64,000 bases of DNA from Pelagomonas calceolata (taxonomy: Eukaryota), in contig CAKKNE010000004.1 in the NCBI GenBank assembly GCA_918797485.1, forward strand, positions 3,348,001 to 3,412,000. Direction: 5' to 3'. The notes below the pieces were generated by a model. The model was given only the letters and a program-made list of their open reading frames with translations, was not told the DNA's origin and made no database searches. A program made the translations under genes and the position numbers. Of this stretch, positions 6,487-46,234 are shown piece by piece; positions within the stretch are counted from its first letter, which is position 1, and every line of letters begins with the position of its first letter.

Positions 6487-7575
6487 CGGGCCCACCCGTC
6501 CGGCTGGACTAGGACGCAAGGGCTGAGTCACAGGGACTCGCACGCCCCCCCTCTTTTGGGACGACCCCCGTCAGGGTGTGGAAACTGGCCACTGGCTCCT
6601 CTTTTATGACGAGCCGGAAATCAAGTGGTGAGAGAGATGCCCTCGCACACCAGGCCGAGCAATCCTGAAGCGGGGAGCGAGAGCTCCGACCCGCCCAGAC
6701 GGCCCTTGACAATAACTCGTCGGAACGGAACTAATGGGTTCAATGGATGCCCCAGCGATTCGGAGGGCCTGCGAAAGCTCGGCCGGCGCGGCCAAGGTTA
6801 CGGGGGGCGGCATGCCGCCGCCCCCAACGCCTCCCAGGTCGAGACCAGCTCCGCTCCGTAGGGTCGGTCCGGTCGCAGGCAGATGAGGCTCGCCGTCATG
6901 CCGGCGGCAGAACTTCAGGAAACGGGCCGGATACCACCGAACGTGCACCACTCGATGCCCGAGGATGGGCGCCGTCCGTGTTCCGGGCTCGACCCGCCAA
7001 TAAAAGAAAGTGGGCGCGCCATGCCGGCGACGCCCGGAAAGAAAGATCGGTTGACCTGCGCGTGGGGCCTTCAACCCAAAGGGCGGAAAGACGCGACGCG
7101 AGAAGGCCAGGATGGTGGAAGTCGCCGACGCCGCGATCATTTGACGACCGCGAGCGACGGGACCTACCCCGCGAGCGTCGCCGAGAACTCGATGCCCGAG
7201 GGGGCGCGGCCGCGGGGCAGCCCAAAAAAGTAAGCAACAGAGCGTGAACAAGATGAGACATCGCCGGCGAGCCCGGCCGCGCCGGTCCGCCCGCGCGACC
7301 GACCACTCGACCGCCACGATTGACTTGACCGGCGTCGGCGCGAACGCGAGTTACCCCTGCGGGAGGTCCGCCGCAATGGACCCGCGGACTGGTGCGCGAC
7401 AATCGCGCGCAGAAGCGGCGGAATCGAGTCGGCGCTTTGATCATCAAGCCAGGCACCGAGCGGGTTTTTCGTGCGGGTCCCTGGGCCCAAATCGTTTCCC
7501 GCTCGTCTGGGTTTTGGAGCGCGAGACCTCGACATCGTACCCGTCGGCCCCGCCGTAGAATTCTGAGGTTTTATT

Positions 7576-7599
7576 GCTAGTGTCTTACGGGCCGCTAGC
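7576..7599 (+). promoter_or_regulatory. CTAG-dyad upstream motif
   Basis: GCTAGTGTCTTACGGGCCGCTAGC, ~140 bp before ATG 7742. Confidence 0.7.
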
Positions 7600-8608: not shown

Positions 8609-8648
8609 CGCGTCGCCTCGACGGCGCGAGGGTGACGCCATCGCCGCG
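8609..8648 (+). repeat. Short dispersed repeat after a stop codon; inverted copy at 19018-19055
   Basis: CGCGTCGCCTCGACGGCG..GAGGG..ACGCCATCGC present at both loci. Confidence 0.6.
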
Positions 8649-9323
8649 ACAGCTCTCTTCGCCTCGACGCTACGGTGTGCCCGGTGATGTGTAATAGTAT
8701 CGTCCGTCGAGTTATCAAGTACGGGTTTGGCTACTAGCTTTTTTACGATCGAAACAAGCTCAAAGCCAGCACCAAAACGCAAATTTCAGGGTCCCCCCCC
8801 TCCGGCGCCGGCATCCTCGCCCGTTCGCGGGGCGGGCGCGCGGCCGTCTTTGGGCCGTGGAGCCGGTCCCCGGCGCCTGTCGGTCGTGCTTTGGGGAATA
8901 ATCTATCGCTTTTCGCAGTGGGGCTTGAGGCGCTTAATGTGGCGGTGGTGGATGGTGGTGTTGCATCGAAGCATTGGAAATCGCTCGTGCGCCGGCGTCT
9001 GCACCCTTATTTATACCCCAAGGGCGTGCGTTACACTTTGCATACCCTCCAGCACTGCGGGCGCGAGCGTTGATGGCGCGCGTCGCCTTGCTGGCGCAAA
9101 AGTGTCACTATGGTTTGGGCAAGCATAAAACGTCCCGCGGCGACGCGGCGCGGCGAACTCGTCGCCCTAGGAGGGCACCCCCGCACGGCCCACGCGGGCG
9201 GGACTCAGAGAGCGAGAACGTTACGGTAGTACACACACTGCAAACACCAAGGGCGCGCCGTGCTCGCGCCGACGGCGCCCGCGCCTGCCTCCGCTCAACG
9301 AGTTTCCGCGCAGGCCTGCCAAC

Positions 9324-11836: not shown

Positions 11837-14284
11837 ATGGAGCGCTACGACTGCAAGAAGGTGGTGGGAAGGGGCACCTACGGAAGCGCGGTAGTAGCGA
11901 CGCGCAAGGCCGATGGACTGCGCTGCGTCATCAAGACCATCGGTCTAAGGTCCTTGTCTCGAGGCGAAGCGAAATTAGTCCGACAAGAAGCGAGACTACT
12001 CGCTACCTTGAGGCACCCGCACATCGTCTCGCACCTCGAGTCGTTTGGAAGGAGGAACTCGCACGGCGGACGAGAAGTGTGTATTGTGATGGAGTACTGC
12101 TCGGGCGGTGATCTAGAACAGTGGGTTTCGAGACGAAGGCAACAACGCAAGAAGCCCTCGGAAGGCACAGCCCTCAGAATCTTCGCGCAAGCCTGCATGG
12201 CTTTAGAACATGTACATGCTCATAGAGTGGTCCATCGGGACGTCAAGACGTCGAACCTATTCATTACGAGGGATGCGGAGGGGCCACCCGTCGTCAAGTT
12301 GGGGGACTTCGGCATTTCGCGCGTGTTGGGCGCGACTGGGGATTTAGCAGCGACCGCGGTCGGAACGCCTTGCTATATGGCTCCGGAATTACTCGACGAA
12401 AGGCCCTACGACTACAAGGCCGACGTCTGGTCCGCGGGATGCGTGTTGTTCGAGTTACTTAATTTGAAGCGGGCGTTCGAGGCTCGGAGCATGCCGGCTC
12501 TCGTTAGACTAGTGATGAGGGGTCGAGGTGCGGGCTTTCCCTGTCTCGATGCTACTTTTACGTCCGAATTGCGACGGTTATTTGCGAAACTACTGTCGCC
12601 GAAGCCTCGCGATAGGCCGGACATTGTCGAGATTCTCAGAGCACCGATCGTCGTCACGGCGTGCGACCGGGTGCGGGACGGGTATTCTGGGGAGAGTTCA
12701 CCTCCATCACAACCGGTGGTTCCTGAGGAGGAGCTGCGCCAGCGGTTGAAAGTGCCCAAGCCGCCTTGTAGGCCGGCGCAGCCCGTCGCGCAAAAGCGCC
12801 GCCTCGACCTGCCTGCCGCGAAGCAACGGTTGGACTCCAAATTCGACGACGCCAAGACACCAGCAAGGCCGCCGCCGCGCTTCGTCGCTCGAGCGAGGGC
12901 CGCCGAGGAGCGCGTCCTCGAACGGGCGAAGCGCGCGCGCGCTATTAGGGGTCATGGTCAGAGGCGCCTCGCGACGCTGGACGAGGATGCCAAGCAAGCG
13001 CCCGTCGAAGACGACGCGTCGTCGTCCTCATCAGAATCAGAGGACGAGGCCTCCTCCTCGGACGAAGTGGAAGAGAAGCCGCAGCCGAAGAAGGAGCAGG
13101 CCGAGTACAAGGCGTTAGGTGGAGGCTGGTGGCTGAAGCGCGACGCGGCCTCGGACCGGTGGTTCTACGTCAACGAGGCCTCGGGCCACTCGCAGTGGGA
13201 CCTGCCCGACGGCGTCTCTACCAATGCGCCGCGCGCCGACGGCGTGGATGCGGCGGCGGCGAAGCGCGTGCGCGACGCCGTGCGGGCGCGCGTCGCCGCG
13301 CGCGCCGGCGCCGCCGCGCGGCGCGCGCGCGGCCCGTCGCCCTCCGCGGCGCCCGCGGCCCCGGCGCCGCGCGCCACGCCACCGGCGCCCGCGCCGGCGC
13401 GCCGGCCTTCTCAACCGGCACCCGCGCCGGCGCCGGCGCGGCGCCCGTCGCCCCCTGCGCAAGCGGCCCCGGCGCGGCGCCCGTCGCCGCCCGCGCCCGC
13501 GCCGGTGCGGCGCTCGTCTTCGGCGCCCGAACCGCGCCAGTCGCCGCCGGAAGGAGCGGCGCGGCGCCCGTCGCCAGCACAAGCGCCGGCGCCGGCGCCA
13601 GCCGCGGCGTCGTGGCTCGGCTCCCTCGAGGCGCGCATGGGCCGGCTCCGCGAGCAGCTCGGCGGCCTGCCCCGGCCGCCGCCGCCGGTGCATCGCGTGG
13701 CCATCCCCTTCGAGTCGCCGGATACATCATCGGGCCCGGCGGCCGACGACGCGAGCGACGACGCGTCGCCCGCGCGCAAGGAGAACACGCCACCGCAACG
13801 GCCCGCGAAGGGCCCCGCGCTCGCCGCGGCGCACGTGCGCGAGCGCGCCAAGCTCAAGGCCGACGCGGCGTCGGCCGCTGCCAAAGCGGAAGCGGCGGCG
13901 GCCGCGCGCGAGGCGGCGCAGCCGTCCGCCGCCGAACGACGCGCCTCTGCCCGAGAAAAGTCGCGAGCCGAGTTCCGGGCCAAAATAGCGGCGGACCGCC
14001 GCGGCCGGTCGCCCTCGAAGCGCGATGATAAAGTGGAGGTCCTCGCCGGCCCGATTCCGCCGCTGTCGCCGGCGCGGCCGCCCGTCGTCGCGCCCGTCTC
14101 GCCGGGCACGACGGACGCCGAGGTCCAGGACCTCGTCGCCAAGCTGCGCGCGACGCTCGCGCGACGGAAGGACAAGGCGCCGTCCGACGACGACGTCGTG
14201 CGCGCGGTCCTCGCGGGGCGCGCGGACGCGTGGCCGCCGCCGCCGCGGCGCACCGGCGAAGAGTTCTTCGACGCCCGCTCGTGA
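11837..14284 (+). CDS. NIMA-related (NEK) Ser/Thr kinase with a WW domain and Pro/Ala-rich tail
   Basis: GRGTYG, HRDVKTSNLF, KLGDFGISR, GTPCYMAPE, YDYKADVWS; WW-like GWW...WFYVNEASGHSQWDLP. Confidence 0.9.
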   Translation: MERYDCKKVVGRGTYGSAVVATRKADGLRCVIKTIGLRSLSRGEAKLVRQEARLLATLRHPHIVSHLESFGRRNSHGGREVCIVMEYCSGGDLEQWVSRRRQQRKKPSEGTALRIFAQACMALEHVHAHRVVHRDVKTSNLFITRDAEGPPVVKLGDFGISRVLGATGDLAATAVGTPCYMAPELLDERPYDYKADVWSAGCVLFELLNLKRAFEARSMPALVRLVMRGRGAGFPCLDATFTSELRRLFAKLLSPKPRDRPDIVEILRAPIVVTACDRVRDGYSGESSPPSQPVVPEEELRQRLKVPKPPCRPAQPVAQKRRLDLPAAKQRLDSKFDDAKTPARPPPRFVARARAAEERVLERAKRARAIRGHGQRRLATLDEDAKQAPVEDDASSSSSESEDEASSSDEVEEKPQPKKEQAEYKALGGGWWLKRDAASDRWFYVNEASGHSQWDLPDGVSTNAPRADGVDAAAAKRVRDAVRARVAARAGAAARRARGPSPSAAPAAPAPRATPPAPAPARRPSQPAPAPAPARRPSPPAQAAPARRPSPPAPAPVRRSSSAPEPRQSPPEGAARRPSPAQAPAPAPAAASWLGSLEARMGRLREQLGGLPRPPPPVHRVAIPFESPDTSSGPAADDASDDASPARKENTPPQRPAKGPALAAAHVRERAKLKADAASAAAKAEAAAAAREAAQPSAAERRASAREKSRAEFRAKIAADRRGRSPSKRDDKVEVLAGPIPPLSPARPPVVAPVSPGTTDAEVQDLVAKLRATLARRKDKAPSDDDVVRAVLAGRADAWPPPPRRTGEEFFDARS

Positions 14285-17354: not shown

Positions 17355-19007
17355 ATGCGCAGCCTGTCACTACTCATCCTGATCTACGACGCCATCGCAG
17401 ACGAGACCTTCGTGCCAAGAACATTAGTAGAAACGGACGACATCCCTCTCAATGGCGAGGACTCTACTGATGCCGGCGCGGCCTTGGTGAAAAGTGGCGC
17501 CTACGCGGAGCTCCGCCAAGCAGCACAAACGACCAGCGCTACATTAGAACTGCGAGCGAACGCCGCGCTCACTTACCTACTCGAGGGCGATCTGACCACC
17601 GCGGACATCGTGCTCTCGCATTTAGCAAGGTGGTGCCGCACGAAGTGGAACAAGACGCTGCCGGATAATGATGAAATAGCGTGGCTCCACGCGCCGTGCG
17701 GGGCCGTCAAGAAGAACTTATTCTGGACCTTGGAGACGCGCGAGACGCACTTCCAGCTCTGGGACCTGCAGGAGGAGATCATGGACACGTACAAAGCGAG
17801 ATTGCGTGCTGCCCTGCGCGGCGTCGGCACGTCAGAAGGAAAAGCGCTCTCGGTCTACGACGTGGGACTAGGCGACGCCGTCTGCAAGCACCGCACGTTA
17901 CAAGAGCAGATCCAGAACCCCTGTTCCCCAACGATGCACGGGTCCGCGGCCACAACCCTGAAGGTGGAAGACGCCTACCTGGATCTGTTGAGACGGGGCC
18001 TGACGAATTTTTTGCACGCGGACTGGCAGAACATGGACTGGCGGCCCTACCTCGAGGAGGAAGGTTTAACACATGACGCAAAGGCCTGTTCGGTACAGGA
18101 GCTGTCGCACGTGCCACCGGCCCAGGCCTGCGAGCAGCCCTGGGGTCCGGCCTGGCGCGCCGCCGGCGTGTCTGGATTGGCCTCGGGAAAGGAGGGCGAG
18201 GAGGCCGAGCGGCAGAGGAGGCGCTTCCAGACGACGTTGGCTGTTGCCGACTTAGTTCATTTGGAGGTCGTCGTGGACACTATTTTAACAGATAATGTAA
18301 AGGGCGACTTCATGGAGGCCGGCGTCTTTAGGGGAGGCGCCTGCATCATGCTGAGGGGGCTCCTGGCAGCTAAACGGGACGTGCATCGCAGAGTGTACGT
18401 CGCGGACTCGTTCGCGGGCATCCCGCCGCCGCGGCGCGCCATCGAGGACGTGTCGACGGGCAAGGTCCTGGATCCGGAGCTCGACCCGACGTTTGATTGG
18501 GTGGATCGGTTTGTGGCGGGCGAGGATTTGGTGCGGTACAACTTCCGGCGGTACGGGCTGCTGGACGATCGCGTTCGATTTTTGAGGGGCTTCTTCAACG
18601 AGAGCCTGCCGCCGGTTTTCGGGTCCACGTCGACAGAACGACCTGTTACAATCAACAATGCCCCGACTCTAGCGTTATTGCGCATCGACGCCGACGCCTA
18701 CGACGGTGTGCTGGACGCTCTGGAGGGCGCCTACCACCGCCTGTCGCCGGGCGGCTTCGTGATTATCGACGACTGGCACCTCGGCGGCGCGCGCGCGGCG
18801 GTCCACGCGTTCCGGCGGCGGTTTTCCATCAAAGGCCCGATCCGGTCGTCGCCGTCGGATTTGGTTCTCACGTGTTCAACGGATCTGACGGCGGTGGCGT
18901 CCTGCGCCACGGGCCGCGCCTTGCTCGCGCAGAGCAAGGCCTACACGGTGACGGTCCTGCCGCACGTCGCGTACTGGCGGAAGGGCTGGGACGAGCCCGG
19001 GCCCTAG
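17355..19007 (+). CDS. TylF/MycF-family O-methyltransferase with signal peptide
   Basis: GDFMEAGVFRGG, VADSFAGIP, LRGFFNESLP, LLRIDADAYD, LSPGGFVIIDDW. Confidence 0.9.
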   Translation: MRSLSLLILIYDAIADETFVPRTLVETDDIPLNGEDSTDAGAALVKSGAYAELRQAAQTTSATLELRANAALTYLLEGDLTTADIVLSHLARWCRTKWNKTLPDNDEIAWLHAPCGAVKKNLFWTLETRETHFQLWDLQEEIMDTYKARLRAALRGVGTSEGKALSVYDVGLGDAVCKHRTLQEQIQNPCSPTMHGSAATTLKVEDAYLDLLRRGLTNFLHADWQNMDWRPYLEEEGLTHDAKACSVQELSHVPPAQACEQPWGPAWRAAGVSGLASGKEGEEAERQRRRFQTTLAVADLVHLEVVVDTILTDNVKGDFMEAGVFRGGACIMLRGLLAAKRDVHRRVYVADSFAGIPPPRRAIEDVSTGKVLDPELDPTFDWVDRFVAGEDLVRYNFRRYGLLDDRVRFLRGFFNESLPPVFGSTSTERPVTINNAPTLALLRIDADAYDGVLDALEGAYHRLSPGGFVIIDDWHLGGARAAVHAFRRRFSIKGPIRSSPSDLVLTCSTDLTAVASCATGRALLAQSKAYTVTVLPHVAYWRKGWDEPGP

Positions 19008-19110
19008 TTTTTTTCTTCGCGATGGCGTGCCCCTCTACGCCGTCGAGGCGACGCGCGGTCGCGGCGATGGCGTGCTGGTGCCGTATTTATCTTAGCTTAA
19101 GTATAGTTGT

Positions 19111-19245
19111 GTGTCTTACTCTTACTCCGTTACTCCGCGACGCGAGCCCGCGCTCCGCCGTGCGCGTGTGGCGTAATCGACTCCCAAATCGCCGCAGAAT
19201 TAGGTAGCTCGTCAGCCTGCACGCGAGCCGCGGCTTCGGCGGACC
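19111..19245 (-). pseudogene. Decayed duplicate of the 3' end of the Ldh_2 dehydrogenase gene (functional copy at 27111-27222)
   Basis: Reads EAAARVQADELPNSAAIWESIT versus EAAARVQADELPIPKAIWESIT, with several short duplications near the stop. Confidence 0.85.
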
Positions 19246-19403
19246 AGCAAAGCTAAAAGAAAAAAAAACGGGTTTTCTAGCTTTTTGCCGCGCCTTGGGG
19301 CGTAAACCCGTTTTGCAGACTTAGCTAAACTCCGGAATACCAGAGCTGGGTTAAGTCCGCGCCCCGCGGCCCCCGGGCCACGGGAGGGAGCGCGGCCGCG
19401 TCC

Positions 19404-21556
19404 ATGGCCGCAGCGGTGCCCCAAAGGCAGACTCCGCTAAAAAAATGGATCTCTGATGGCTGTGTGTGCGTGAACACGGCCTCCGGCGGGAACGACGACG
19501 TGAACGCTGTACCGGTCGCATTCGTGGGCCTGGAGCTCCTCGCGCTGTGCCGCCGCGGCGGACAAACCCCCGCGTGGGACGAGCCGTCAGTCGCGCCGGA
19601 GGAAGTCTTCTTTAGCGTGCGACGGAGCGCGTTCGTGGCGGTGACGGCGCCGTCGACGCTGCGAGGTTGGGTCAGACCCGACGGCGAGAACTACGCCGAG
19701 GGCCGCGACTTCTTCGTCGTCTCCGCGCTTGTTGGAAGGCGGAGGCTGACGGCGAGCGAAATTTTGAGGAAGAAGACGACCGGGGCGCTGCGCTACGAAA
19801 GCATGGCGCGGCCGCCGCGTCCGCATCGCACGTCCGTCCGTCGACGTCACCCGCGCAGGTATTCATGTCGCCAGGGCTTCTCGGAGCGGTCGTCTTCGCC
19901 GATCGCCGGCGCCGCAGAAGAGCTGGGGCTGCTGCGACTTCGCCGGCCGAGTGGAAGGAGCTCGACGCGCAGGCCGTGGCCCTGTGCCGGCCTCGCTGGT
20001 CCGGCGAGACCAGGCTCGTCCCCGAGACGTTGATCGCGCTGAGCGCCTACGATGGCCCGCCGCGACCGGCCCGGGGCTCGGCGTTCCGAGCCGCGAGGGA
20101 TCTGCTCGCTCGACGCGTCCCGAAGCGCATCGACACGAAGCTGTCGATCGACCAGACGGACGAGCTCGTCGTGACCGCGGCGATCCTCGAGGCGCTGGCT
20201 GGCCGCGAGGAGCCCGACGCCGACCTGCTCCGCACGCTGAAGCCCGGCTTCGCGGACGTTGGTATCGAGCTCGGCGACGTGAGGCAGTTCGGCGACCTAC
20301 GGCTCACCGCGCGGAACGCGGTCTACGTGCACGTCGTCTCGGCCGTCCGCAACCTCCTGCGCGCTCCGCGTCTCTCGCGACCTATCCGGGCCAGCGAACG
20401 CATCGTGGACTGGATGCGGGCGCTCTCAAAGGCGCCGATCCTCGCGCCGGCCGTGCCGAAGCCCGCCAACAACGCGCGGCCTCTGGAGGCCGCGTTGAAA
20501 ATCGTCGCGGCGATGCTGGCGGCGAAGAACGGGCCGACGGCGGCGGCGGAGACTGCGCAGCGCCAGGAGGCGCATCTGCGGGGCGGCGGGCACGACGCCG
20601 CCGCGGACTTCATCCGGGCGCCGTCGACGAACCAGGCGTCCAAGGAATGCGAGCTCGTCGCGGCGGCGTCGATGGCTGTGTTGAAACGGCTACTCAAAGA
20701 CCGCGACGTGACTATTACGAGCGACGCGGGGTCTCAGACGATCGCGGGCGTCGCCCATCACTTCCACGCGTTCCGTATGCTCGCCGTCGTGCCCACGGAG
20801 GCTGCTCCAGCATGGAGGCTGTCGGCCTGGGCGAAACGAGCTGCGGCCGCGCAGGAGCGGGACTCGAGACGGCTGGCGCCGGGGCTCTTCGTCCCGGGCG
20901 ACGCGCCGCCGGGGGACCTCAGCGGTTACAACGCGTATGTTAGGGCAACGGCGGGCTCAGCGCATCAGGCCGTCGCCGACGGCCCGGACAAGTTCGGCGA
21001 GGCCTCCCGAAGCGTCGGCGAACGGTGGAAGGCGCTCGGGCCGATCGGGCAGCGGCCCTACGACGATGAAGCGCGGGACGAGAACGTGGATCGGCTCAAG
21101 GCCCGGGCTGATTACGCGCACGCTTCGGTCCTGTGGGGCGCGTCCCAGGGAGCGCTCCCGGAAGCGCGGGCGCTGATGGCCCAGCCCTACCGGCCGGGCC
21201 TGCCGCAGACCGTTACGGCTGGTGGGCTCTTCGCGTCCGCTTTTCCGATTGATAAAGGGACTATCGCTGCGCACTTCGCCGCGGCCGGCAAGTCGTGGGA
21301 CGAGCTAGATCCTACGGCGCGCCAGGCTTCAGAGGACGCGGCCTCCGATAGAAATAGGGACCTCGCCGCGGCGACGGCCCGGGCGACGCTCGTGCCGCAG
21401 CGGCTCGCCGACCTGGGCGCCGACCGTGACGCGTGGGCGGCCATCGCCGCGCGTGCAGGGGTCCCGGCCCTGCCCACGGCCGAGGCCGTGCGGGCGGAGC
21501 CGCGGTCTCTTCCCGACGCGCTCAACGAGTCGCTGATGCGACTGAATTCGATGTGA
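19404..21556 (+). CDS. Transposase-associated ORF: putative first catalytic Asp plus two HMG-box-like repeats (probable intron ending at 19858)
   Basis: TITSDAGS (D at 20723). HMG-like SGYNAYV...KFGEASRSVGERWKAL...RPYDDEA. Frame change bridged by a CGCAG acceptor; donor uncertain. Confidence 0.55.
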
Positions 21557-21989
21557 CTGCATGACCCGCAGACGCCCCCTACGGAGTGCTTCGATCGCTC
21601 TCGTCATCGCGTCGTTCGTGTCGACGTCCGTATATTTTCGCAAGCGCGCACAAGGCGCATCGTAATAACATGACCATCATCCCATTTGACTAGTACCATT
21701 CGGCCGGCGCGGACTCCGCGCTGAGGCACGCCGCTGCTGCGTCCAGCTAGAATCCGTACCGCCAGGCGTGAAGTGGCTCCGCGGCCTTCGGACGCGTCCC
21801 GAGAGACGCGTATTTTCACCTGAAAACCCGTCGCCTCTCACAAACCGATTTGCTCTGCCGCGCCTCCCCGCCGTCCTCCGTCTCACAGCCCTCCTCAGAA
21901 CTGCTTCAGAGCAAAGCCCCGGGCCAGGGCTTAGGCCATCTTGCTCTGGTGAGGCGGAGGCGGCGCCGCCCGGCGCCGTGCGCGCGCAA

Positions 21990-24421
21990 ATGCGGGATGC
22001 TCATCTGATCTGTCTGAAGGTCGCCGACCGGACCGGCACGCGCTTCGTCGCGTGCGCCAGCTCCGAGTGGACGGTGGCGCAGCTCAAGACGGTGCTGTGC
22101 GCGGCGTCGTTCGGACAGAAAGGCGAGCTCCGCCTGCGCCCTAGCGAGATCGCGCTCTCCCTCTGCTCGGTCCAACTCGCCGACCAGCGGAAGCTCTCGG
22201 ACTACACGTTGGTCCGCGACAGCGTGGTGAGCGTGCGCGTGATCGGCGCCGACGACCGCAAGCCGCCCGGCCACCTGCCGAAGTGGCTGAGCGACGTGGA
22301 GCTGTCTATTGTGAGCTGTCCCCTCGCGATGGTGGGCTGCAGCAGGAAGGCGGACGGCGAGCTCGTCGCCGAGGCCTTCCAGGAGGCGCTGGAAGCCTTC
22401 GGCCCCGTCGACCTCCAGCAAGTCGGCGCCTGGACCGTGGACGGCGCCGGCGACGGCAAGGTCGCGCGGCGCGTGCTAGCGGTCTTGCAGCGAGAGCTGT
22501 GTCGGAAGGCGCAGGGCGGCGACGAGGACGACGTGGACGACGAGGCGGAGCTGCTCCCACTACGCGTACGACGCCCCCCCATCGGCGGCGACTGCGTGCC
22601 CCATTCTGTGCACGACGCCATCAAAGGTTTGATGCGTCGCTATTTTGCGGCCTGTAAGCACTCCTCGGGCACGAAGTCGAACGATGTGATGAGCCGGTCG
22701 ATCGAGAGCGCCTGCGCGCTCCTGCGAAAGCTGTTGACGGAGGTCCAGCAGAGTGGCGTCGTCGTGGAGGACTGCGCCGAGACGCGCTGGGGCAGCCACG
22801 CCCGCGGAGCGCTTCAGTTGGCCGTCGCTGCGCCGTTCTTGGCCCGGGTCTTCAAAAGCCACTACGGCATCACGGGCGCCGAGGACCTGAAACAGCTAGA
22901 CTGGAAGGAGCGGCGGACCTACTTGATGCTCACGGAGGCGCCCCTACGCCTGACGCTATTTATTTTGGGCGAGCTCCACTACTACCTCTGCCAACCGCTA
23001 CTCGACTGGGCCAACGCGTGCTCGAGCCTGCGCTTCGACGAGATCGGTGCCAAGGTCCTGGAGCTCGGCGCCGCGTCGCTGATGACGCCGTCGGACCGGC
23101 GGGACTTCTTCCCGAACTCCTACGCGTTCGCCTGCGCGGCGGGCTTCGCCGCCTCCGACGTCGACGCCATCGTGACGAAGCACGTGGCCAACTTCATGAG
23201 GTACATGCTGAATCGACTGGACCTCGTGCGGCGGGCGCCGTACTGCTACACGTTCTTCTTCTCGCCCGAGCACCGCCAGCGCCTCGCCCAGTCCCTCGTC
23301 GCTGCGCTAGAGGCCTACGAGCGGGGCGAGGGCGACCTGGAGGCGTTCGAATTCTGCGACACGCTGGGCTTCCGCGAGTCCGACGAGCTGGCCGCGGCGC
23401 TGCGGGAGGTGGCCGCCGGAGGGCCCCTCCCGCGCGTGCTTCACAAGCGCGACTCTGCGTCCGAGCGGTGCACCCGACTCTCATCGGTCGATTTACACGT
23501 AGGCGCATCGCCGAGACCCACGGCGCGCTCACGTTCGGCCAGGCCGCCGCCGAAAACGACGTCCACATCTGCCAGCAGCTCCTCGAGATGAACTTTCGGA
23601 GGCCCTTCATGCTGTCGGTCATGTTCTTCCTCTTCGGCTCGCAGATGGATCTGACGGACGCCATCCTCGAGTCGTTTCCGGACGACTCGCCGGAGCTCCG
23701 GGGCCTTCGCGGCGAGAATCGCGGGCGCTTGGCCGACGAAAAGGCCGCGCGCGGTGCTGAGGACGCGGCGCGGCCCGACGTCGCCATCACGGAGGCGGAC
23801 GCCGCGGCCGTGTTAGATGCGACGACGTCCGCGAGGGACGACGCGACGAAGTCGAAGGACTGCGCCGCGGCGGCGATTGCGATCGCGGAGCGGCGCGGCA
23901 CCCGGGCCATCGCGGAGCTGCCGCCGCACACGGATGGCGCGTGCGCCAGCTGCGGCGACGCGGCGCCTCTGTTGGCGTCGTTCTGCCACGATACGGACTG
24001 CGACTCATACTGCGCGCTCTGCGCGCTTATCGCCGCGAGCCAGCCCGGCGTGGAGTTCTGCTGCCCGTCGTGCGAGACGGCGACGGACCGCTTGCTCGTC
24101 GATGTGGCCGCGCAAACGTTTGTGACAAAGCTCGAGGCTGCCAAGGCCGCGTCCGCGACGGCTCCGGCGAAAAAGAGGGCCCGAGAGAGGGGCGCGTGCT
24201 CCCACTGCCAGACCAACTACGGCGTTCACGTCACGGGCCACAACAAGAGCAAATGCCCGTTCGTCGCGCGCGACGGCGCGCCCGCGCCTGTGCGCCGCGT
24301 CAAGCGCCACCGCGTCGCCGCCGCGGACGACCAGTCACTCTTCTTCGGCGAGACGGCGTTCGGGGACTCGCGGGACGAGACCAAGGGGCCGGCCTTCACG
24401 TCGTGCCTCTGGGGCATGTGA
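21990..24421 (+). CDS. hAT-like DDE transposase core with N-terminal ubiquitin-like domain and C-terminal RING-like and zinc-knuckle motifs (GC-AG intron 23447-23502); true start uncertain
   Basis: WTVDGAG (D 22440), CVPH (22593), ETRWGS (22779), AAAEND (E 23552). Ubl WTVAQLK..LADQRKLSDY. CASC..CHDTDC..CALC..CPSC; CSHC..GHNKSKC. Confidence 0.65.
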
Positions 24422-25272
24422 ATCTGTATCTGGGCCCGCACACGGCGGGTCCTAATTACCATTATTTCTGACTACATTCCTCTCGGGGGGCGGCTCGCGG
24501 CGAGCACTCGGTTCGCGCCGCGCCGCGCGCCGTGCCGACGCGGCCTCGGACACGGTGCGTCGCTGGGGACCGCGCCCCGGCCGGAACCGCGTCGCACGTA
24601 ACTTTCACCGGGCCGACCCGACGGCCTCGACGCGGGGGGCGCGCGGCCGCGCGGACGCGCCGCCGTCGCGACCAGCCGCGAGGCCTTGACGGCCGCGGCG
24701 ACGCCGGGCTGCCGCTGCGCCAACCGCTCGCTTCCGGCTAAACCATTTCTGTGGCCGGCGGGGCGCCCTCGGCCGAAAGCGCGAGAACGTCGCGCGGTCA
24801 GCAAAACGCGTGCGTCGCGCCCCGTGCAGCAGTTACGCTGGCGAAGCACTCCTCCAGGTCCCTTCTTTGTAGTCCGGGAGCCGCGGCTCCGCGCGTTGCG
24901 CTGGCGGCGTAATTTACGGCCGTCGAAGGCGCGTCGGGCCCAGGCCGCGCCAAAGGCCGCCCTAGCGTTCCCCGCCAGCGGCGCCTCGAGCAACGCTTGA
25001 CCCAGCCCAGGCCAGGGGGTGTCTGCGGCTACCGCCGGCGCGCAGCAGCCCTCGTATCGAGCCGTGCACGCGCCGCTGGCCTGAAAAAACGGGTTTCCAA
25101 AAAAACCCGGGACGAAATTACGGGTTTGTGTCCCAAGGCCGCGCAGCGGCCTGGTGGATACACGCCGGGGCCGTAGTGACAAAAATTCGCCGCAGATAGA
25201 GGGTCGTCACGCAACAAATCTTGAGCTCTTGTCGAGCATCTGCAGGCCTGAGAAGCTGAGATCTGAATCCAA

Positions 25273-26850
25273 AATGTCCAGCGACGATAGCGGCGTCGAC
25301 GAGACCGGCGTGGACCGCATGGACGTCCGCATCGTTCAACACATGACTCTGGGCGCATTGCCGCACAGCGACGCGGTCCAAGCGCTACTCGCGAGCGACG
25401 GCGACGTACTGGAGGCGTGCGCCAGAGTCGTACCACGGGAGGACCCCCATTTCTCGGACCGGCTCACGGCCGCGGCAGAGGCGGCGAGCGCCGAGGCCGA
25501 CGTCGATGACGCGTTGGACGTGGCCAGCCCTTTGGGCGCGGCGGGATCGATGCAAAACAAATTACGAGAAAACAACCTATCTGCCGGCGGCGACATCGAC
25601 GGCGTCGACGCCTTCGACGCCAGAAGAGCGTCGCGCCGGGCGTCGGATCTGCTCCGCAGAGCATCCTTAGCAGACGACGAGGACGAGGAAGAAGCCGCGG
25701 ACGTGCCACAGATTTACGCGCGCTGGGGCGGCAACGGGAAATCCGACCCAAACACAAGAAAGACGTGGACGCAAGAGGCTCTCGAAACGTACTTCGATAA
25801 ATATGATGACGTCCCATCAGGCCCGGATTTTGAAGCGGGCGGCGGCAGTGCCCGGGTCGCTTCAGAACTACGAAAGATCAAGAAACGTCGTGATAGAGCT
25901 CAGAAGCGGCGCGCCGGCGAACAAAGACTCCAAGCGTTAAGACAGGCCGGTGGCATTTATAGTGGCCCGAACGCCCAGTTCCCGACGGACGGAAATGGAG
26001 TGATCACGAAGGTTAAGAGAGAAGACTGGGAGGCGGGTGGTGGAGATCCGAAGGTCTTCAAGAGCGAGTCACAGCGCTGGCGCACGTGGCATCACGCGTC
26101 CGAGCGGACGGTAGATCTGCGCGAGGCGCCGACCGCCACGGGAAGGGTGCCCAACGCATTCGTATCTCCGGGCCGCAATTACTTTTATTTCTAGAAAATT
26201 GGGCGGTCCGGAACGGCCGAGCGGACTACGGGCGACGCTTGTTGGAGGCGTGCGTGCAGGGCGCGTACGGAACGGCCGGTTTGATTGCGGGCCTCGATCC
26301 GGTGCAGCGCGAGCTGGCTGTTCGAGGCCGCGGCGCAACACGGATGGCGGATCGCCTGGGCGCAAGCAAGGACGAGATCGATGCAGTCAACGCTCAGCTC
26401 GGGGTGCTCGGCCGCGAGTTCTCGGACTTCGTACTGGCGGCGGCGGCGCGCGACGAGTCCCTGCCGTTCTCACTGCAGTTCTGGGACCCCACGGGCGGGC
26501 TGGACGCGCGGATCCACCGCGTCACCGACATAGCAAGCCTCGTCGACGACGACGAGTATAACCACTGGGGCGACTGGACGGACACGGCTCTCAAGTCCCA
26601 GCTCTACGGCGCGCTCCAGTACGGCGCGCGCTTATTGACCGACGATCCAAGTTTAGTTCTGGCCGACGAGGTCGACTCGAGCTGCTTCCGCAATTTTGTG
26701 GACCGCCGGAACAAGTACAATCTCTCCGGCTACGACTGGACGATCTGGTTCGGTTGGATTCCGTGTAGAAGCTTGCACGGGATAGCCTTAGCTTGGTGCC
26801 CCGGTGCCTTCTGGGGATCGACGCGTCTCGAGTCCATCTGTATCTCTTGA
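25273..26850 (+). CDS. Unknown cargo protein(s) with UBA-like N-terminus; frame change near 26190 (pseudogene or unrecognised intron)
   Basis: Overlapping ORFs 25154-26194 and 26086-26850 with protein-like composition; DAVQALLASDGDVLEAC is UBA-like. Confidence 0.4.
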
Positions 26851-27115
26851 TGTTCGCGCAGGCCTGGACTACCGTCTGACGTACACGCACCCCATCACGA
26901 AGAGGCGCATCGTGATCTGTCCGCAGGTCGTGCGCGACGAGCTGCGCGCGCGCGCCGCCGCGGCGCGTTCGGACGCGTAGCGCCCGACTATACGTCCCTC
27001 CCCCACATGGCCCCGGCTCAAACCTGGCGGCCCGTTCCCCCGGCTCTCCCCCCTGGTCTTTACGGACCCTTAATGAGTCACTCCGAATTAGCTAGGCCGC
27101 AGGCAGGCCCGTGTC

Positions 27116-28508
27116 TTACTCCGCGAGCCCTTGCTCCGCGGTGCGCGTGATCGACTCCCATATAGCCTTCGGAATTGGTAGCTCGTCGGCCTGGACCCGA
27201 GCCGCGGCTTCGGCGGCGGACCGGTCGCCCGGAACTCTCGCGCCCGCGTCCTTGACAGCTTTACAGACGGCGGCGGCCTTTGCGTCGAACTCGTCGACGA
27301 GCGCGTCTGGCTTCACACACAGGAACAGGTGGCCCCAATTCTTGGCGTCCTTTTTGACCTCCTGACCGACGACGGCGCCGCCTGACAGCGCCCCTGCCAA
27401 CAGCTCGACGCACAGGGCTAGACCGGCCCCTTTATGTCCGCCTGTGTGGAAATCAAATTTCGGACCACACTAACTCACTGGTTGATTTCCACACAGGTGG
27501 CGTGCCGAACGTCGCGATGGCTCCTCCATCTAACACAGCGCCCGCGTCCGTCGTCACCTTCCCGCTCGCGTCGTAGGCGACGCCTTCCGCGAGCGGCGCG
27601 CCCGTGGCCTTGGCCGTGAGCACGCCGAAGAGCGCCACCGCCGACGTCGCCATATCAAACGAGAATGGAGCCTGGCCCTTGCGCGGGACCGCGACGGCCA
27701 GGGGGTTCGTGCCGAATACTGGGGAAGCGCCGGCGCTTGGCGCGACCTGTGCGACGCGAGGTTCCATACGCCATCATTGGCGCGAGTCGCAGCGTGAAGG
27801 CACCGTCGGACGCCGGTCGCGGACGAACTCCGGCGAATTGGCCAAGGCGAGGCAGACTAGACCTCGTTTCGCCTGTCGCTCGGCGTAGAATGCGAGCTGG
27901 CCCGACGAGGTTGAGGTGTTGTAGGCGCTCACCACCGCCACCTGTGTAGAAATCAAATTTGACGCCGCGTTCAATCGCGTCGACCTCCACGCCATCGACG
28001 CGACGCTTGCTCGATGGCGTGGCGATGCCGATTCCTCACCGCTCGACGGAGCCAGCACGGCCGCGTCACCGCTGAGAAATGACTTAGTGAAGAAGGATCG
28101 GGTGCATCCGACGCACTGGTTGATCACGTTGTTTTCTAGCGCTTTGTCCGCCGCCAGGTCCGAAGCCGTGACGGCCGCGAGCATGCCCGGAGCTTGATTC
28201 GCATTGATCGCAGCGGACGTCGCCGTCTCGCGTTCGACGACGGGCTTGCCCGCGCCCGGTTGTGGTGCCATGAGTGACGGGTTGAACATTTTCACGAGGC
28301 CTTGGTTGTTGCCGCATAATTCGGCCGCGGTCATGATCTCCGCCTGGACGTCGGCGGCCTCGTCGTCCCATCCGATCATGCGCAGCGCTTGCGCCGTCGT
28401 CGACTGAGCCTCGTGCACAGAGACGGTGACGGTGTCCGCAGCGGAGAGGTGGCGCACTGTGCACACCCTCGTGCGCGACACGGCGCGCATGGCATGGCGG
28501 AGGAGCAT
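27116..28508 (-). CDS. Ldh_2-family (type 2 malate/L-lactate/sulfolactate) oxidoreductase; exons 28508-28128, 27941-27825, 27746-27506, 27441-27116
   Basis: Spliced product has FGTNPLAVAVP, FDMATSAVA, FGGHKGAGLALCVELLAG and RVPG; N-terminus resembles a mitochondrial presequence. Confidence 0.9.
27442..27505 (-). mobile_element. Introner element, short type; 64-nt GC-AG intron
   Basis: Perfect TIR CTGTGTGGAAATCAA / TTGATTTCCACACAG; removal restores FG|GHKG. Confidence 0.85.
27747..27824 (-). other. 78-nt GT-AG intron
   Basis: Removal joins NSPEF|VAPSAG and deletes an in-frame stop. Confidence 0.8.
27942..28127 (-). mobile_element. Introner element, long type with truncated 5' TIR; ~186-nt in-frame intron
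   Basis: Colinear homology with 45931-46130; ends TTGATTTCTACACAG. Donor position tentative. Confidence 0.8.
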
Positions 28509-33875: not shown

Positions 33876-35426
33876 TTACTCCCTCACATCGTCGTCGCCG
33901 AGCGCGACCGGCTCCGTCAGCGTCTGGAACGAGACCGGCGGCGGCTCGGTCGCGACCGGCGGGTCGTACGCCTCGGCGCGCGGCGACCCGGATTGCCACC
34001 GTCGGGCCGTGTCGTCGAGGCGCTCCAACGGCAGGCTCATGTCCACGCCGCCGATGCGGTCGGCGGCGGCAAACAACGGCCGGATGAACGCGATGAACCC
34101 TTTCTGGAACTGGGCGAGATCCGTCGCGTCGCGCGCAGGCACCGTCAAGGGCAGCCCGCGCTCCCGCTCCAGCTCGGCTTGCCGCCAGAACTCCTCCATG
34201 ACGAGCGCGGTCCATCGTCTATAGACAGGCCAGGGCTTCGCCGGGTTCGAGATATCGCATGCATGGATGAAGATCTTCAAGCACGGGACGTGGTGTTCTG
34301 GGGTACAAGCTTCATAGGAAGTACCGCGCTCCTTCGCCTTTGATAGCGCCCGTTCGAGCTCGAAGATCTGCTGCGAGTGCTCCTTCATGTCCGTCGCGAG
34401 CAGCAAACCGATCCAGAGCGCGCGGTTCTGCTTCTGGTCTGTTGATGGACGCGTCCTTAAATAAGGTTTGGCTAGATTGAGTGCCACGGCGGCGTGCATG
34501 TTCTCCAGTGGAGACGCGTCGTTGTAGCGGATGGCGAGCTCGTGGCCCGTCTCGACCAGGAAGTTATTGGTCAATCCTGGATGGCCCACGTCGTGCGACA
34601 GGCACGCTAACAACGTCACCAGGACGACGTCGTCGTCTAAGGCGTCGTCGAAGGTCGGCGCGAGATTTAAGAGAGCGTGCATCGCCTGCAGGACGTCGGC
34701 GCCGTGTAAACAGTTGTGGTAGGGCACGTCCTGGTACGACGCCAGCATCTTGGACACGACCTGGCGCAGGATGGGGGACGCCGACGCCGCCCGAAAACCC
34801 CTCGCCTCAAACACGACGGCGTCGACGATTGCTCTACTAGCCAGCAACGTGTCGCCCTGGAATCTGTGTGGAAATCAGCCAGTGAGTCAACATCGCGTCG
34901 ATGGCGTGGGGCGCCCGAAATTTGATTTCCACACAGCCCGGAACGCGTCCACGACGCTCCACACGTCAAAGCCCCAGGCGTTGACCTCCGACAGGGCCGC
35001 CTCGAGCGTCTTCCGGCGCTCCTTTGGGACGCTCGACGCGAGCTGCCGTTCGGAGATCAAGTCGGCCACCGCATTTTTGCACGCCTTGCGCAGCTGCGGC
35101 GTCTCGGGGCTCGGCCTTCGTTTCGCGAGCGGGTTCGGTTTTAGTGGTGAGGCGCCGTAGGCGTCGACCACCGCGTCCGCGGTTGACGGGTCGAGGTCCT
35201 CGGTCAGGTTGCTGTGCATCCTCACAAAGAGCTCGTCGCCGCCGCCGTGCTTTTGACGCGTCGTCGTCGTAGCCTCCTTGAGGATTCGTATTTCGGCTGC
35301 GGTCAATGTGATTTGTGCATCGCGGTCCCCGGGCAGCGCCTCAAGCTTTGTGCGTAGCGTATGGCTCGCGTCCGCGTCGCTTTGCTTGGGCTCTGTGCCG
35401 AACAGCAGCCCGTAGAGGTACTCCAT
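33876..35426 (-). CDS. Class I cyclic nucleotide phosphodiesterase (intron 34864-34944)
   Basis: PYHNCLHGADV, HDVGHPGLTNNFL, YNDASPLENMH, LATDM, HACDISNP, EEFWRQ. Confidence 0.93.
34864..34944 (-). mobile_element. Introner element, short type; 81-nt intron with 8-bp TSD (6/8)
   Basis: TIR-bounded element 34864-34936. Intron start GTTCCGGG versus next exon start ATTCCAGG; splicing removes an in-frame stop. Confidence 0.88.
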
Positions 35427-35967: not shown

Positions 35968-37098
35968 ATGGCCACGGACGGCTACGTCTCGCACCAGCAA
36001 CAAAAATGGGAGACCTATCTGGCGGAGCACCAGATCGAGAAGATCTTCCGGGACATGACCTCGGACATTATCACGAAGCAGCCCCAGGATTCCATACAAC
36101 ACATGATCGAGTGGCTGCACAAGTTTAGGGAGGCGAAGACGAAGCCGAAGAAGAGTGACAAAAAAGGAAAGAAGGGCCGCGGCCGCCAGCGCGTCGTCGA
36201 GTCGTCGGACTCCGACTCCGACGATTCCTCGGAGGACGACCGGCCCTTCGTCGCCGTCAAGCAGTCAAAAACAAGACGGGGCACGATCGCCGCGCCGCGC
36301 CTGAGCCTGACGAAGAACTGGACGCCGCCGTCAGTCCCGAAGGAGGCGCACGAAGAATCGTTCCTAGGACGGCAGCTCATGACCATCTTCTTCATGAAAT
36401 CGTGCACGAGGAAGGAGCTCCACGTGCTGGTCGGAGCCATGTCGACGGAGACTTATGAGGACGGTGCCACGATAATCAAGCAGGGCGAGCGGGGCGACGC
36501 GTTTTATGTGGTCGAGGACGGTGAGGTGGTATGTATGAAGGATGAGGAAACAGTGCTGACCATCCCCTGTCCCTCTACCGAAGATCCTTCCGTGGAGCGG
36601 CGCTACTTTGGGGAGTTAGCGTTGCTGTACGACGCACCTAGAGCAGCTTCTGTGAAAGCAGTTGGTAGAGTTAAATTGTGGGCCTTGGACAGAACTACAT
36701 TCAAGTCCATTTTACAACAGTCAGATGATATCAAGATGATGCTCTACTCGAAGTTCGTCCAGTCGATTCACCTATTCAGAGATCTAAAGCTCTCGCAAGT
36801 GAACGCGTTATGTGCATCATTACAAGCCCAGGATTTTGATGACGGGGACACAATCTTCAAGCAGGGCGACGACGGCGACGCGTTTTATATAGTGGAGTCG
36901 GGTGAGGCCGCCTGTTTGAAAGATGGGGTCGTCGTGTCCATCGTGCACGAGGGCGATTACTTCGGCGAACTGGCGCTCGTGCGGAGGGAGCCGCGGGCGG
37001 CGACGGTGCGCGCGAAAGGGAAGCTGTCCGTGCTCAAGATCGGGGCGCGGGCCTTCAAGCGGTTGATCGGGGTCCTCGAGTTCGACAAAGTTTACTAG
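35968..37098 (+). CDS. cAMP-dependent protein kinase regulatory subunit-like
   Basis: N-terminal docking-like domain, RRGTI inhibitor site, two cNMP domains (FGELALLYDAPRAASV; FGELALVRREPRAATV). Confidence 0.9.
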   Translation: MATDGYVSHQQQKWETYLAEHQIEKIFRDMTSDIITKQPQDSIQHMIEWLHKFREAKTKPKKSDKKGKKGRGRQRVVESSDSDSDDSSEDDRPFVAVKQSKTRRGTIAAPRLSLTKNWTPPSVPKEAHEESFLGRQLMTIFFMKSCTRKELHVLVGAMSTETYEDGATIIKQGERGDAFYVVEDGEVVCMKDEETVLTIPCPSTEDPSVERRYFGELALLYDAPRAASVKAVGRVKLWALDRTTFKSILQQSDDIKMMLYSKFVQSIHLFRDLKLSQVNALCASLQAQDFDDGDTIFKQGDDGDAFYIVESGEAACLKDGVVVSIVHEGDYFGELALVRREPRAATVRAKGKLSVLKIGARAFKRLIGVLEFDKVY

Positions 37099-45420: not shown

Positions 45421-46234
45421 TCATTTCCCTCCCAGGTGCTTTGCCGCTCGAGCCCTTTGCGTGCTGTGGCCGGTGCGCATCCACGCGCAGCCGCCGTGGA
45501 GGGGCGAGCACCCGCTCCGGGGCTTGTACTCGCCGATGGACCCCCGCTCGAACTGCGCGTCCGGGAGAACGGCGGGACAGGACGGGTCGAACATGCAGGG
45601 CATCGGCCGGCCGTCGAAGGGGTTGATCGCTTTCTTCGTCTGCGGGCACGCGAGGACGTCGCGAATGTCGGCACGACCCGTCGCGCGGACTGCGGCCACA
45701 TTAAAAAAGGTCGAGCCCCGCGTCGGCACGAGGAACGCGCAGCGCGAGAAGAGGTGGTTCTCCACGAGCGCCTCGAGCGCCGGGTCGTCGACGCGGGCCT
45801 CGACGATCGACACGTTGTCCGCCTTCGCGAGGGCGATGAGATCTCGCTTCAACCACGCCGAGTGACCATCGGAACCAATGAGTAGACCGCCGTCGTGCCG
45901 CGCGACCGCTTCTCTCAGGCGGGGCCACACCTGTGTGGAAATCAACCAGTGCGTCGGGTGCCCGACAATTCTTCACTAAGTCATTTCTCGGCGATGACGC
46001 GGCCTCCTGGCTCAATCGAGCGGCGAGGAACCGGCATCGCCACGCCATCGAGCAAGCGTCGCATCGATGGCGTGGAGGACGACGCGACGATTCAACGCGA
46101 ACGCGCCGTAAAAGTTTGATTTCCACACAGGGCCCCACATCGCCGGCGCGCCAGTCCGGGCCCTTCTTGCGCAGGTGCACGCCGACGCCGCAGCCCTCCG
46201 ACCGCGCGAGCGCCGCATCGACCGCCTTCCTCAC
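45421..46234 (-). pseudogene. 5'-truncated fucosyltransferase-like (NodZ/GT23-type) gene with an introner intron
   Basis: VGVHLR and LFSRCAFLVPTRGSTF motifs; no ATG, in-frame stop just upstream. Confidence 0.6.
45931..46138 (-). mobile_element. Introner element, long type; 208-nt intron, perfect 15-bp TIRs, 8-bp TSD (7/8)
   Basis: CTGTGTGGAAATCAA at 45931 and TTGATTTCCACACAG ending at 46130; GTGGGGCC versus GTGTGGCC. Confidence 0.92.

What the first reader, a model, noticed from the sequence alone, without database searches (positions are those of the whole stretch)
19111..27222. 8-kb insertion bracketed by two recoded copies of the host gene's last ~36 codons (att-like integration that rebuilds the target gene)
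Seen: 19111-19245 and 27111-27222 are diverged direct repeats of the 3' end of the Ldh_2 gene. Differences are mostly synonymous third positions (CGG/CGC, GTC/GTG, GCC/GCT, CCA/CCT, GCT/GCG, ATA/ATT, ACC/ACG) with about 4 amino-acid changes, so both tails were once under coding constraint. The dead copy lies next to the convergent TylF gene, where the original tail would be expected. Inference: the incoming DNA carried its own version of the gene terminus and integrated inside the CDS while restoring it, as prophages and ICEs do. This would be unusual for a eukaryotic nuclear element. No integrase is visible, so homologous integration of a circle or an in-trans recombinase is implied.
Basis: partly seen in the sequence, partly recalled or inferred. 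Interest (0 to 1): 0.85.

Follow-up and report, generated by a model that had tools for sequence, protein, structure and literature searches.

The report
Odd hAT-like transposon strands gene tail
In a marine alga, a metabolic gene stays whole while a broken second version of its last 33 codons lies 8 kb away, joined to what is likely the end of an undescribed hAT-like jumping gene; the likely cause is a one-off mis-jump between two diverged chromosome copies, less likely a phage-style insertion that rebuilds the gene.

Summary
The repeat is real (81.6% identity, E 1e-20) and the block is an insertion: two metagenome proteins read from Ldh_2 straight into the TylF end. ORF B (21990-24421, spliced, intact) folds like Hermes hAT transposase (Z 11.1, next 5.0) but starts with a ubiquitin fold. 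It travels with an HMG-box ORF A, and both have many metagenome relatives. ORF C (25274-26980) has only 100%-identical hits. So the block is likely a 5.9-kb transposon (about 19245-25153) plus a private 2-kb piece, not one 8-kb element. The dead tail starts exactly at the likely left end; there is no TSD and no true TIR. The tails differ mostly at synonymous sites (dS about 0.45, dN about 0.08), and two of four amino-acid differences occur in intact wild proteins, so both were probably working alleles. Best reading (0.45): one transposon end was inserted out of register into a diverged homologue (hybrid/one-ended transposition). A tail-carrying circle integrating by homology (0.25) is not excluded, because the live tail is unusually far from wild tails. 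No DNA of an empty site or second copy could be obtained. New variant of a known kind; interest 0.5.

The parts
17355..19007 (+). TylF-family methyltransferase gene, host flank, convergent with Ldh_2
   Evidence: PF05711 E 7.9e-51; 90-member cluster
19111..19244 (-). Dead copy of the Ldh_2 tail (33 codons, stop, 5 nt), with a probable 3-nt loss at its start
19114..19175 (.). Four small insertions in the dead tail: perfect tandem duplications of 6, 8 and 5 nt (19114-19145) and a 7-nt insertion (19169-19175); possibly transposon footprints (inferred)
   Evidence: alignment; only place in 64 kb with 3 such duplications in 60 nt (113 in the window)
19245..25153 (+). Likely hAT-like transposon, CAG...CTG ends inferred, no TSD, no true TIR
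   Evidence: left end abuts the dead tail; right end candidate followed by an 8-mer of Hermes-type target consensus, 1 of 2 such places in 24420-25274; end motifs
19265..19314 (.). Two copies (one inverted) of an 11-nt subterminal motif; third copy at 25086-25096; imperfect inverted match 19289-19311 / 25121-25143
   Evidence: 3 matches in the window against 0.51 expected, 1 of 100 shuffles reached 3; inverted match score 29 vs shuffle maximum 26
19404..21556 (+). ORF A, HMG-box-like partner gene; intron about 19806-19858 inferred from sequence only
   Evidence: PF00505 E 8.5e-4, below cut-off; 14-member cluster for exon 1; homologue fused to an ORF B relative in P0264, E 2e-14
21990..24421 (+). 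ORF B, about 791 aa after one GC-AG intron (23447-23502): ubiquitin fold, Hermes-like core (D88, D151, CxxH 202-205, RW 266-267, E about 503), Cys-rich finger and CCHC-like tail
   Evidence: splice from transcript protein P0135; folds; motif conservation in alignment A4
25274..26980 (+). ORF C, orphan transcribed gene (one or two genes; last intron 26755-26860), convergent with Ldh_2
   Evidence: spliced proteins P0239, P0240; only 100%-identical hits; no family
27111..27221 (-). Live Ldh_2 tail, stop at 27116-27118; first 19 aligned nt identical to the dead copy
27116..28508 (-). Intact Ldh_2 (malate/lactate dehydrogenase family) gene with introns
   Evidence: PF02615; last exon identical to the annotated Pelagomonas calceolata protein P0096

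Best explanation
The block is likely a 5.9-kb hAT-like transposon plus a private 2-kb piece, and the doubled gene tail likely arose once, when the transposase joined the element's left end into the Ldh_2 coding sequence of a second, diverged chromosome copy. Shown: repeat, empty site in wild proteins, intact spliced transposase-like gene, dead tail beginning at the end-motif cluster. Inferred steps: (1) a donor haplotype carried Ldh_2, ORF C and the transposon in a row; (2) in a cell holding a diverged homologue, one end was inserted 33 codons before the homologue's stop (hybrid element insertion or one-ended transposition); (3) the recombinant keeps the donor's whole gene on one side and the homologue's tail plus TylF on the other, so no TSD is seen and each tail is a former working allele; (4) the stranded tail has since taken two substitutions and four small insertions, possibly footprints of local hops.
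For: Transposase-like fold: first 9 Foldseek rows all Hermes, prob 0.98-1.00 but E only 0.02-0.11; VIA Z 11.1, rmsd 4.4, 273 aligned, next Z 5.0. Mobile unit smaller than the block: ORF B 69 members, 9 stored ones 95.9-98.6% identical, an internally deleted form on 19 contigs (P0136), ORF A fused to an ORF B relative elsewhere, ORF C only identical hits. End motifs only at 19265, 19304, 25086. Empty site: P0120 (3105-bp contig) and P0062 read from Ldh_2 into antisense TylF. Allelic tails: dN/dS 0.18; A15 seen in 4 and R27 in 1 of 26 scored intact tails; P0093 shares body E50 and tail Q7/K15/A16 with the live gene. Precedent: duplication endpoints coincide with Ac termini and the second end has no matching TSD (PMC3744419, passages); hybrid element insertion defined for sister chromatids or homologues (PMC2775673, passages); meiosis genes in P. 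calceolata (PMC9481584, passages).
Against: Element ends are inferred, not shown from a second copy; no TIR beyond 3 nt. The live tail is an outlier against its own body (5 of 32 vs 6-14 of 296 residues, Fisher P 0.002-0.03 in 15 of 16 comparisons, 0.10 in one), which a replacement tail explains more directly; tails are, however, about 1.8 times as variable as bodies against a sister species. dS of 0.45 is high for two alleles and rests on 25 sites. The origin of ORF C is not explained. Codon counts alone do not reject duplicate-then-decay (P 0.18), and the placing of differences on variable sites is not significant (P 0.20). The RNase H sheet was not formed in either model.
Confidence: 0.45

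Rival explanations
1. Tail-carrying circle: in a donor lineage the left end attacked Ldh_2 and released a circle of transposon, ORF C and tail, which entered an intact allele by one crossover in the tail, leaving a chimeric live gene. A recurrent, att-like version is the novel case.
For: Live tail 15.6% from most wild tails, body 2.0-4.7%, wild tails 1.9% from each other; no window-specific residue between exon positions 51 and 82; 19 identical nt at the junction end of the repeat; mosaic-looking wild tails P0098, P0108, P0093; hAT episomes with 80-160 bp between the ends can re-integrate, though canonically (PMC2803484, passages).
Against: The dead tail is as far from the common wild tail as the live one and shares Q7, E10, A16 with it; P0093 links a live-like tail to upstream E50; ORF C is not found with the widespread ORF A/B; no site-specific recombinase family matched; a 19-nt identical run is expected about 1 time in 20 at this divergence (own arithmetic).
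Confidence: 0.25
2. An old whole-gene tandem duplicate of Ldh_2, both copies working, was later trimmed by a deletion running from the transposon's left end.
For: Explains synonymous divergence, no TSD and the tail starting at the element end; adjacent deletion is typical of hAT elements (recalled).
Against: All 16 full-length wild proteins examined have bodies within 4.7% of the window gene, so no diverged paralogue was seen (32 of 98 cluster members listed); similarity stops 5 nt after the stop codon.
Confidence: 0.15
3. The tail was copied from the same allele during insertion or repair, and one copy then decayed.
For: Synonymous share 0.61 against 0.41 expected is not significant (P 0.18).
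Against: Two of the four residue changes need two nucleotide changes each and give residues found in intact wild proteins.
Confidence: 0.1
4. Assembly mis-join across two copies of the transposon.
For: The element looks multi-copy (short contigs, deletion form); reads could not be examined.
Against: The join puts TylF and Ldh_2 back in their wild order; three DNA runs hold 0.99 of the sampled words of 18500-28400, though they may be the source; the published P. calceolata assembly used long reads and Hi-C (PMC9481584, passages).
Confidence: 0.05

Closest known systems
hAT transposons (Hermes, Ac/Ds, hobo)
   Same: Core fold matches Hermes; CxxH, RW and D-D-E-like residues conserved; CAG...CTG candidate ends, short subterminal motifs, right flank of nTnnnnAn type (consensus from PMC2803484)
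   Different: Ubiquitin fold instead of an N-terminal BED finger; Cys-rich and CCHC-like C-terminus; partner HMG-box ORF; no Pfam hAT match in 28 relatives; no TIR, no TSD at this copy
Alternative transposition: P-element hybrid element insertion, Ac reversed-ends transposition
   Same: Direct duplication whose endpoint is an element end, one end without matching TSD (PMC3744419)
   Different: Here the two copies are about 15% apart and an orphan gene lies between element and live copy; event inferred from one natural locus
Prophage/ICE integration with a replacement fragment (e14 and phage 21 at E. coli icd)
   Same: Intact gene on one side, displaced tail on the other (PMC10111431, passages)
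   Different: No tyrosine or serine integrase; no evidence of a circle or repeated use of the site
Dada and KolobokP DNA transposons
   Same: Distant DDE relatives with C/DxxH; Dada lacks TIRs, has subterminal repeats and shows one-ended events (PMC3706591)
   Different: Dada targets multicopy small-RNA genes with 6-7 bp TSD; KolobokP has own 450/660-bp terminal repeats (PMC9587614, abstract); here the repeat is host coding sequence

Membership tests
hAT superfamily | RNase H-like DDE core with large helical insertion domain (Hermes fold) | tested here: met
   VIA Z 11.1, rmsd 4.4, 273 aligned, next 5.0; Foldseek first 9 rows Hermes. The beta sheet itself was poorly modelled
hAT superfamily | CxxH and RW motifs | tested here: met
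   C202-H205, R266-W267; CxxH and TR[W/F] conserved in alignment A4
hAT superfamily | Intact catalytic D, D, E | tested here: inconclusive
   D88, D151, E about 503 are conserved in A4; assignment by spacing to Hermes (residue numbers recalled), geometry not checked
hAT superfamily | N-terminal BED zinc finger | tested here: not met
   Residues 1-85 fold as ubiquitin
hAT superfamily | Short terminal inverted repeats | tested here: not met
   Only CAG/CTG and an offset imperfect 23-nt inverted match; ends themselves inferred
hAT superfamily | 8-bp target site duplication | tested here: not met
   Left and right 8-mers differ at this copy; other copies not available
hAT superfamily | Mobility (several copies at different sites) | tested here: inconclusive
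   Empty site, 69-member cluster and a deletion form; no flanking DNA of other copies, no genome held
att-type integration with replacement fragment | Encoded tyrosine or serine recombinase | tested here: inconclusive
   No Pfam or PHROGs match for ORF A, B, C; ORF C was not folded by me and the Atlas model was poor
att-type integration with replacement fragment | Target gene intact with displaced tail at the far end | tested here: met
att-type integration with replacement fragment | Live tail came with the element (ancestry switch at the junction) | tested here: inconclusive
   Tail outlier but E50 linkage in P0093 and equally distant dead tail; protein level only
att-type integration with replacement fragment | Excised circle and repeated use of the same site | not tested
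   No reads or second occupied locus examined
Dada | Insertion in small RNA genes with 6-7 bp TSD | tested here: not met
   Target is a protein gene; no Rfam match in 18900-27600
KolobokP | 450 or 660-bp terminal direct repeats with own TIRs | tested here: not met
   Only repeat is the 110-nt host gene tail

The most novel reading that the evidence does not exclude
A eukaryotic hAT-like element family carries a recoded copy of the Ldh_2 tail and repeatedly integrates into this single-copy protein gene while rebuilding it, as prophages do at icd, leaving a pool of mosaic tails (P0093, P0098, P0108) in wild Pelagomonas; ORF C would be its targeting or recombination partner.
Probability: 0.1. Interest if true: 0.85.

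Novelty: new variant of a known kind. Interest (0 to 1): 0.5.

Why it matters
Two things stand. First, a transcribed, widespread transposase-like family in marine picoalgae that Pfam does not see, with a ubiquitin fold where hAT has a BED finger and an HMG-box partner; my two searches for transposons in this species and one for this domain mix found no description, within an open-access library only. Second, a natural locus that likely records transposase-driven recombination between diverged haplotypes, which would be a trace of sex or hybrid contact in a dominant ocean alga. If the novel case held, it would be gene-rebuilding, site-faithful integration by a eukaryotic DDE element; a strict six-term search found no paper, which is weak evidence of absence.

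Tried and rejected
No whole genome is held, so copy number and other tail-flanked blocks were not tested; no reads were laid, so junction support, circles and the run of organism B (0.74 of words) stay open. Viral contigs: 0 hits for the tail pattern, ORF B, ORF A and the left end; prokaryote genomes: 0 for the tail pattern. Pfam, PHROGs and PDB sequence searches gave no transposase match; the full-length model matched only ubiquitin-like chains until the core was folded alone. Atlas: no usable hit for P0091 or P0163. Metatranscriptome runs with 0.13-0.20 of the words were not used. ORF C contigs of 1865-1958 bp match the length of the private piece, but one is spliced, so they are probably transcripts and I do not use them as boundary evidence. 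A right end at 27110 was rejected: no inverted match to the left end (score 16, shuffle maximum 22). Gray 1996 and Preston 1996 are not held: titles seen, content recalled. PMC7023781 and PMC3439972 (passages) added nothing. Earlier scan notes: none for this place or sequence, one unrelated. Supplements of PMC9481584 (repeat annotation) were not read and may bear on whether this family is already listed.
Full report
Setting. The window is gene-dense, 63% GC eukaryotic DNA. The last exon of the Ldh_2 gene is identical to that of P0096, which its source names as a Pelagomonas calceolata protein. No whole genome was held and no reads were laid, so all population evidence is at protein level.

The observation. 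The repeat is real: 19141-19242 vs 27122-27216, 81.6% identity, E 1.3e-20, score 130 against at most 53 in 200 shuffles. The live copy ends Ldh_2, the dead copy lies about 105 nt from the TylF stop. In 32 aligned codons there are 14 differences, 9 at third positions; dS about 0.45, dN about 0.08 (Fisher P 0.006 against neutrality). The dead copy also holds insertions of 7, 5, 8 and 6 nt; three are perfect tandem duplications within 32 nt, the only such cluster of three among 113 in the window.

Empty site. P0120 (3105-bp contig) reads from the Ldh_2 end into antisense TylF (32 of 32 residues match 19019-18924), and P0062 (176-kb contig, frameshifted) does the same (17 of 20). Ldh_2, TylF and PhyH proteins each occur on a contig of 6791 bp; if it is one contig (inferred from length), it cannot hold the 12.4 kb these genes span here. 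So the block is an insertion and the dead tail is at the ancestral position.

What is inside. ORF B (21990-24421) is open, and its intron is confirmed by transcript protein P0135. Sequence libraries do not place it. A profile search gave 30 proteins at E up to 0.001; their alignment conserves a D after the first domain, a second D, CxxH, TR[W/F] and a late E. The full model matched only ubiquitin-like chains for residues 1-85. The core folded alone (pLDDT 82) matched Hermes hAT transposase in the first 9 Foldseek rows (E 0.02-0.11, prob 0.98-1.00) and at Z 11.1, rmsd 4.4, 273 aligned, next Z 5.0 among 48,161 chains. For mostly helical models Z under 13 can be a common arrangement, but the hit stands far above the rest and agrees with the motifs. 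ORF A (19404-21556) has a weak HMG-box match, and a homologue is fused to an ORF B relative in P0264 (E 2e-14), so A and B travel together. ORF B has 69 cluster members, a 51% sister clade has 50, ORF A exon 1 has 14; P0136 is an internally deleted form on 19 contigs. ORF C (25274-26980) is spliced but has only identical hits: 1 member for its first part, 2 plus 1 for its second (word-based search, lengths 152-485 aa). An 11-nt motif occurs only at 19265, 19304 and 25086 (0.51 expected). A CAG starts right at the dead tail (19245), and a CTG at 25151-25153 is followed by an 8-mer fitting the Hermes target consensus (PMC2803484, passages). The flanking 8-mers differ and no true TIR exists. I therefore read the block as a 5.9-kb hAT-like element plus a private 2-kb piece; the ends are inferred. 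It works like an hAT element; I do not file it as a member, since BED finger, TIR and TSD were tested and not met.

Which tail is whose. Of 98 members in the three nearest clusters, 32 were listed and 26 scored (3 lacked the tail; 3 more were missed by the script and show the common tail). Of the 26, 20 have the common tail, 2 differ from it by T15A, 2 (P0098, P0108) have E10 A15 A16, 1 is P0093 and 1 is the window's own type. The window gene is 2.0-4.7% from 16 wild bodies (wild pairs 3.4%) but 5 of 32 residues from 14 of 16 wild tails (wild pairs 1.9%). This favours a foreign tail. Against that, the dead tail is equally far from the common tail and shares Q7, E10 and A16 with the live one; its A15 occurs in 4 and its R27 in 1 of the 26; and P0093 couples a live-like tail with E50, a body residue 26 codons upstream that only it shares with the window. 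The six variable sites fit an ordinary allele tree in which live, dead and P0093 form one branch (inference by eye). Only I13N and P14S look like decay. The statistics are weak: duplicate-then-decay P 0.18, site coincidence P 0.20.

Mechanism. Best reading (0.45): a donor haplotype with Ldh_2, ORF C and the element met a diverged homologue, and the transposase put the left end into the homologue's Ldh_2, 33 codons before the stop. The recombinant keeps the donor gene whole and strands the homologue's tail next to TylF, with no TSD. In maize, such duplications end exactly at Ac termini and one end lacks a matching TSD (PMC3744419, passages); hybrid element insertion is the version between chromatids or homologues (PMC2775673, passages); P. 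calceolata has meiosis genes (PMC9481584, passages). Rivals: tail-carrying circle with one crossover in the tail (0.25), trimmed old tandem duplicate (0.15), copy-then-decay (0.10), mis-join (0.05). The small duplications in the dead tail may be footprints of local hops (inferred, untested).

Comparison. The layout looks like prophage integration with a replacement fragment, as at E. coli icd (PMC10111431, passages), but no site-specific recombinase, circle or second occupied site was shown. Dada targets small-RNA genes (PMC3706591, parts 1-2 of 4); KolobokP has its own long terminal repeats (PMC9587614, abstract); hAT subterminal repeats and BED fingers are described in PMC10368747 (passages). 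Searches for transposons in this species, for the domain mix and for gene-rebuilding eukaryotic transposons found no description of this family or layout in the open library.

Verdict. Real feature, new variant of a known kind, interest 0.5. The att-like reading keeps about 0.1 as a recurrent system and would deserve 0.85.

Noticed in passing
7574-7599, 17212, 28610, 29830, 31213, 41960, 43126, 51251, 56136, 59662: A recurring 26-nt intergenic motif near gene starts on both strands (families D2, D12; 7 exact 12-mers); promoter-like
   Followed up: no
27443-27503, 27941-28102 with 34864-34936 and 45928-46116: Ldh_2 introns share ends and an 81-nt, 93% inverted match with introns of unrelated genes; introner-like
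   Followed up: no
19019-19075: Short palindromic repeat in the TylF 3' flank, similar to 8609-8669
   Followed up: no
TylF end, 18996-19007: Wild TylF proteins end in two ways, PGP or PIS, so this intergenic edge is polymorphic
   Followed up: no
P0091 cluster (50 members): Sister element clade, 51% identical to ORF B, called as one 795-aa frame in most members; insertion sites unknown
   Followed up: partly
P0264 (1013 aa), P0227: Relatives in which transposase-like and ORF A-like parts lie in one protein
   Followed up: partly
P0096 vs window 27941-28128: The public P. calceolata protein keeps the first intron in frame (about 60 extra residues against wild proteins)
   Followed up: no
25310-25430: ORF C starts with a stretch that looks UBA-like (recalled resemblance, no library match)
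   Followed up: no
run X13 (organism B): A DNA run under another organism label holds 0.74 of the words of 18500-28400; may be a diverged or partly empty allele
   Followed up: no
13260-13520; 36453-36547 and 36834-36928: GC-rich tandem-like array; and a 95-nt coding repeat inside one ORF
   Followed up: no
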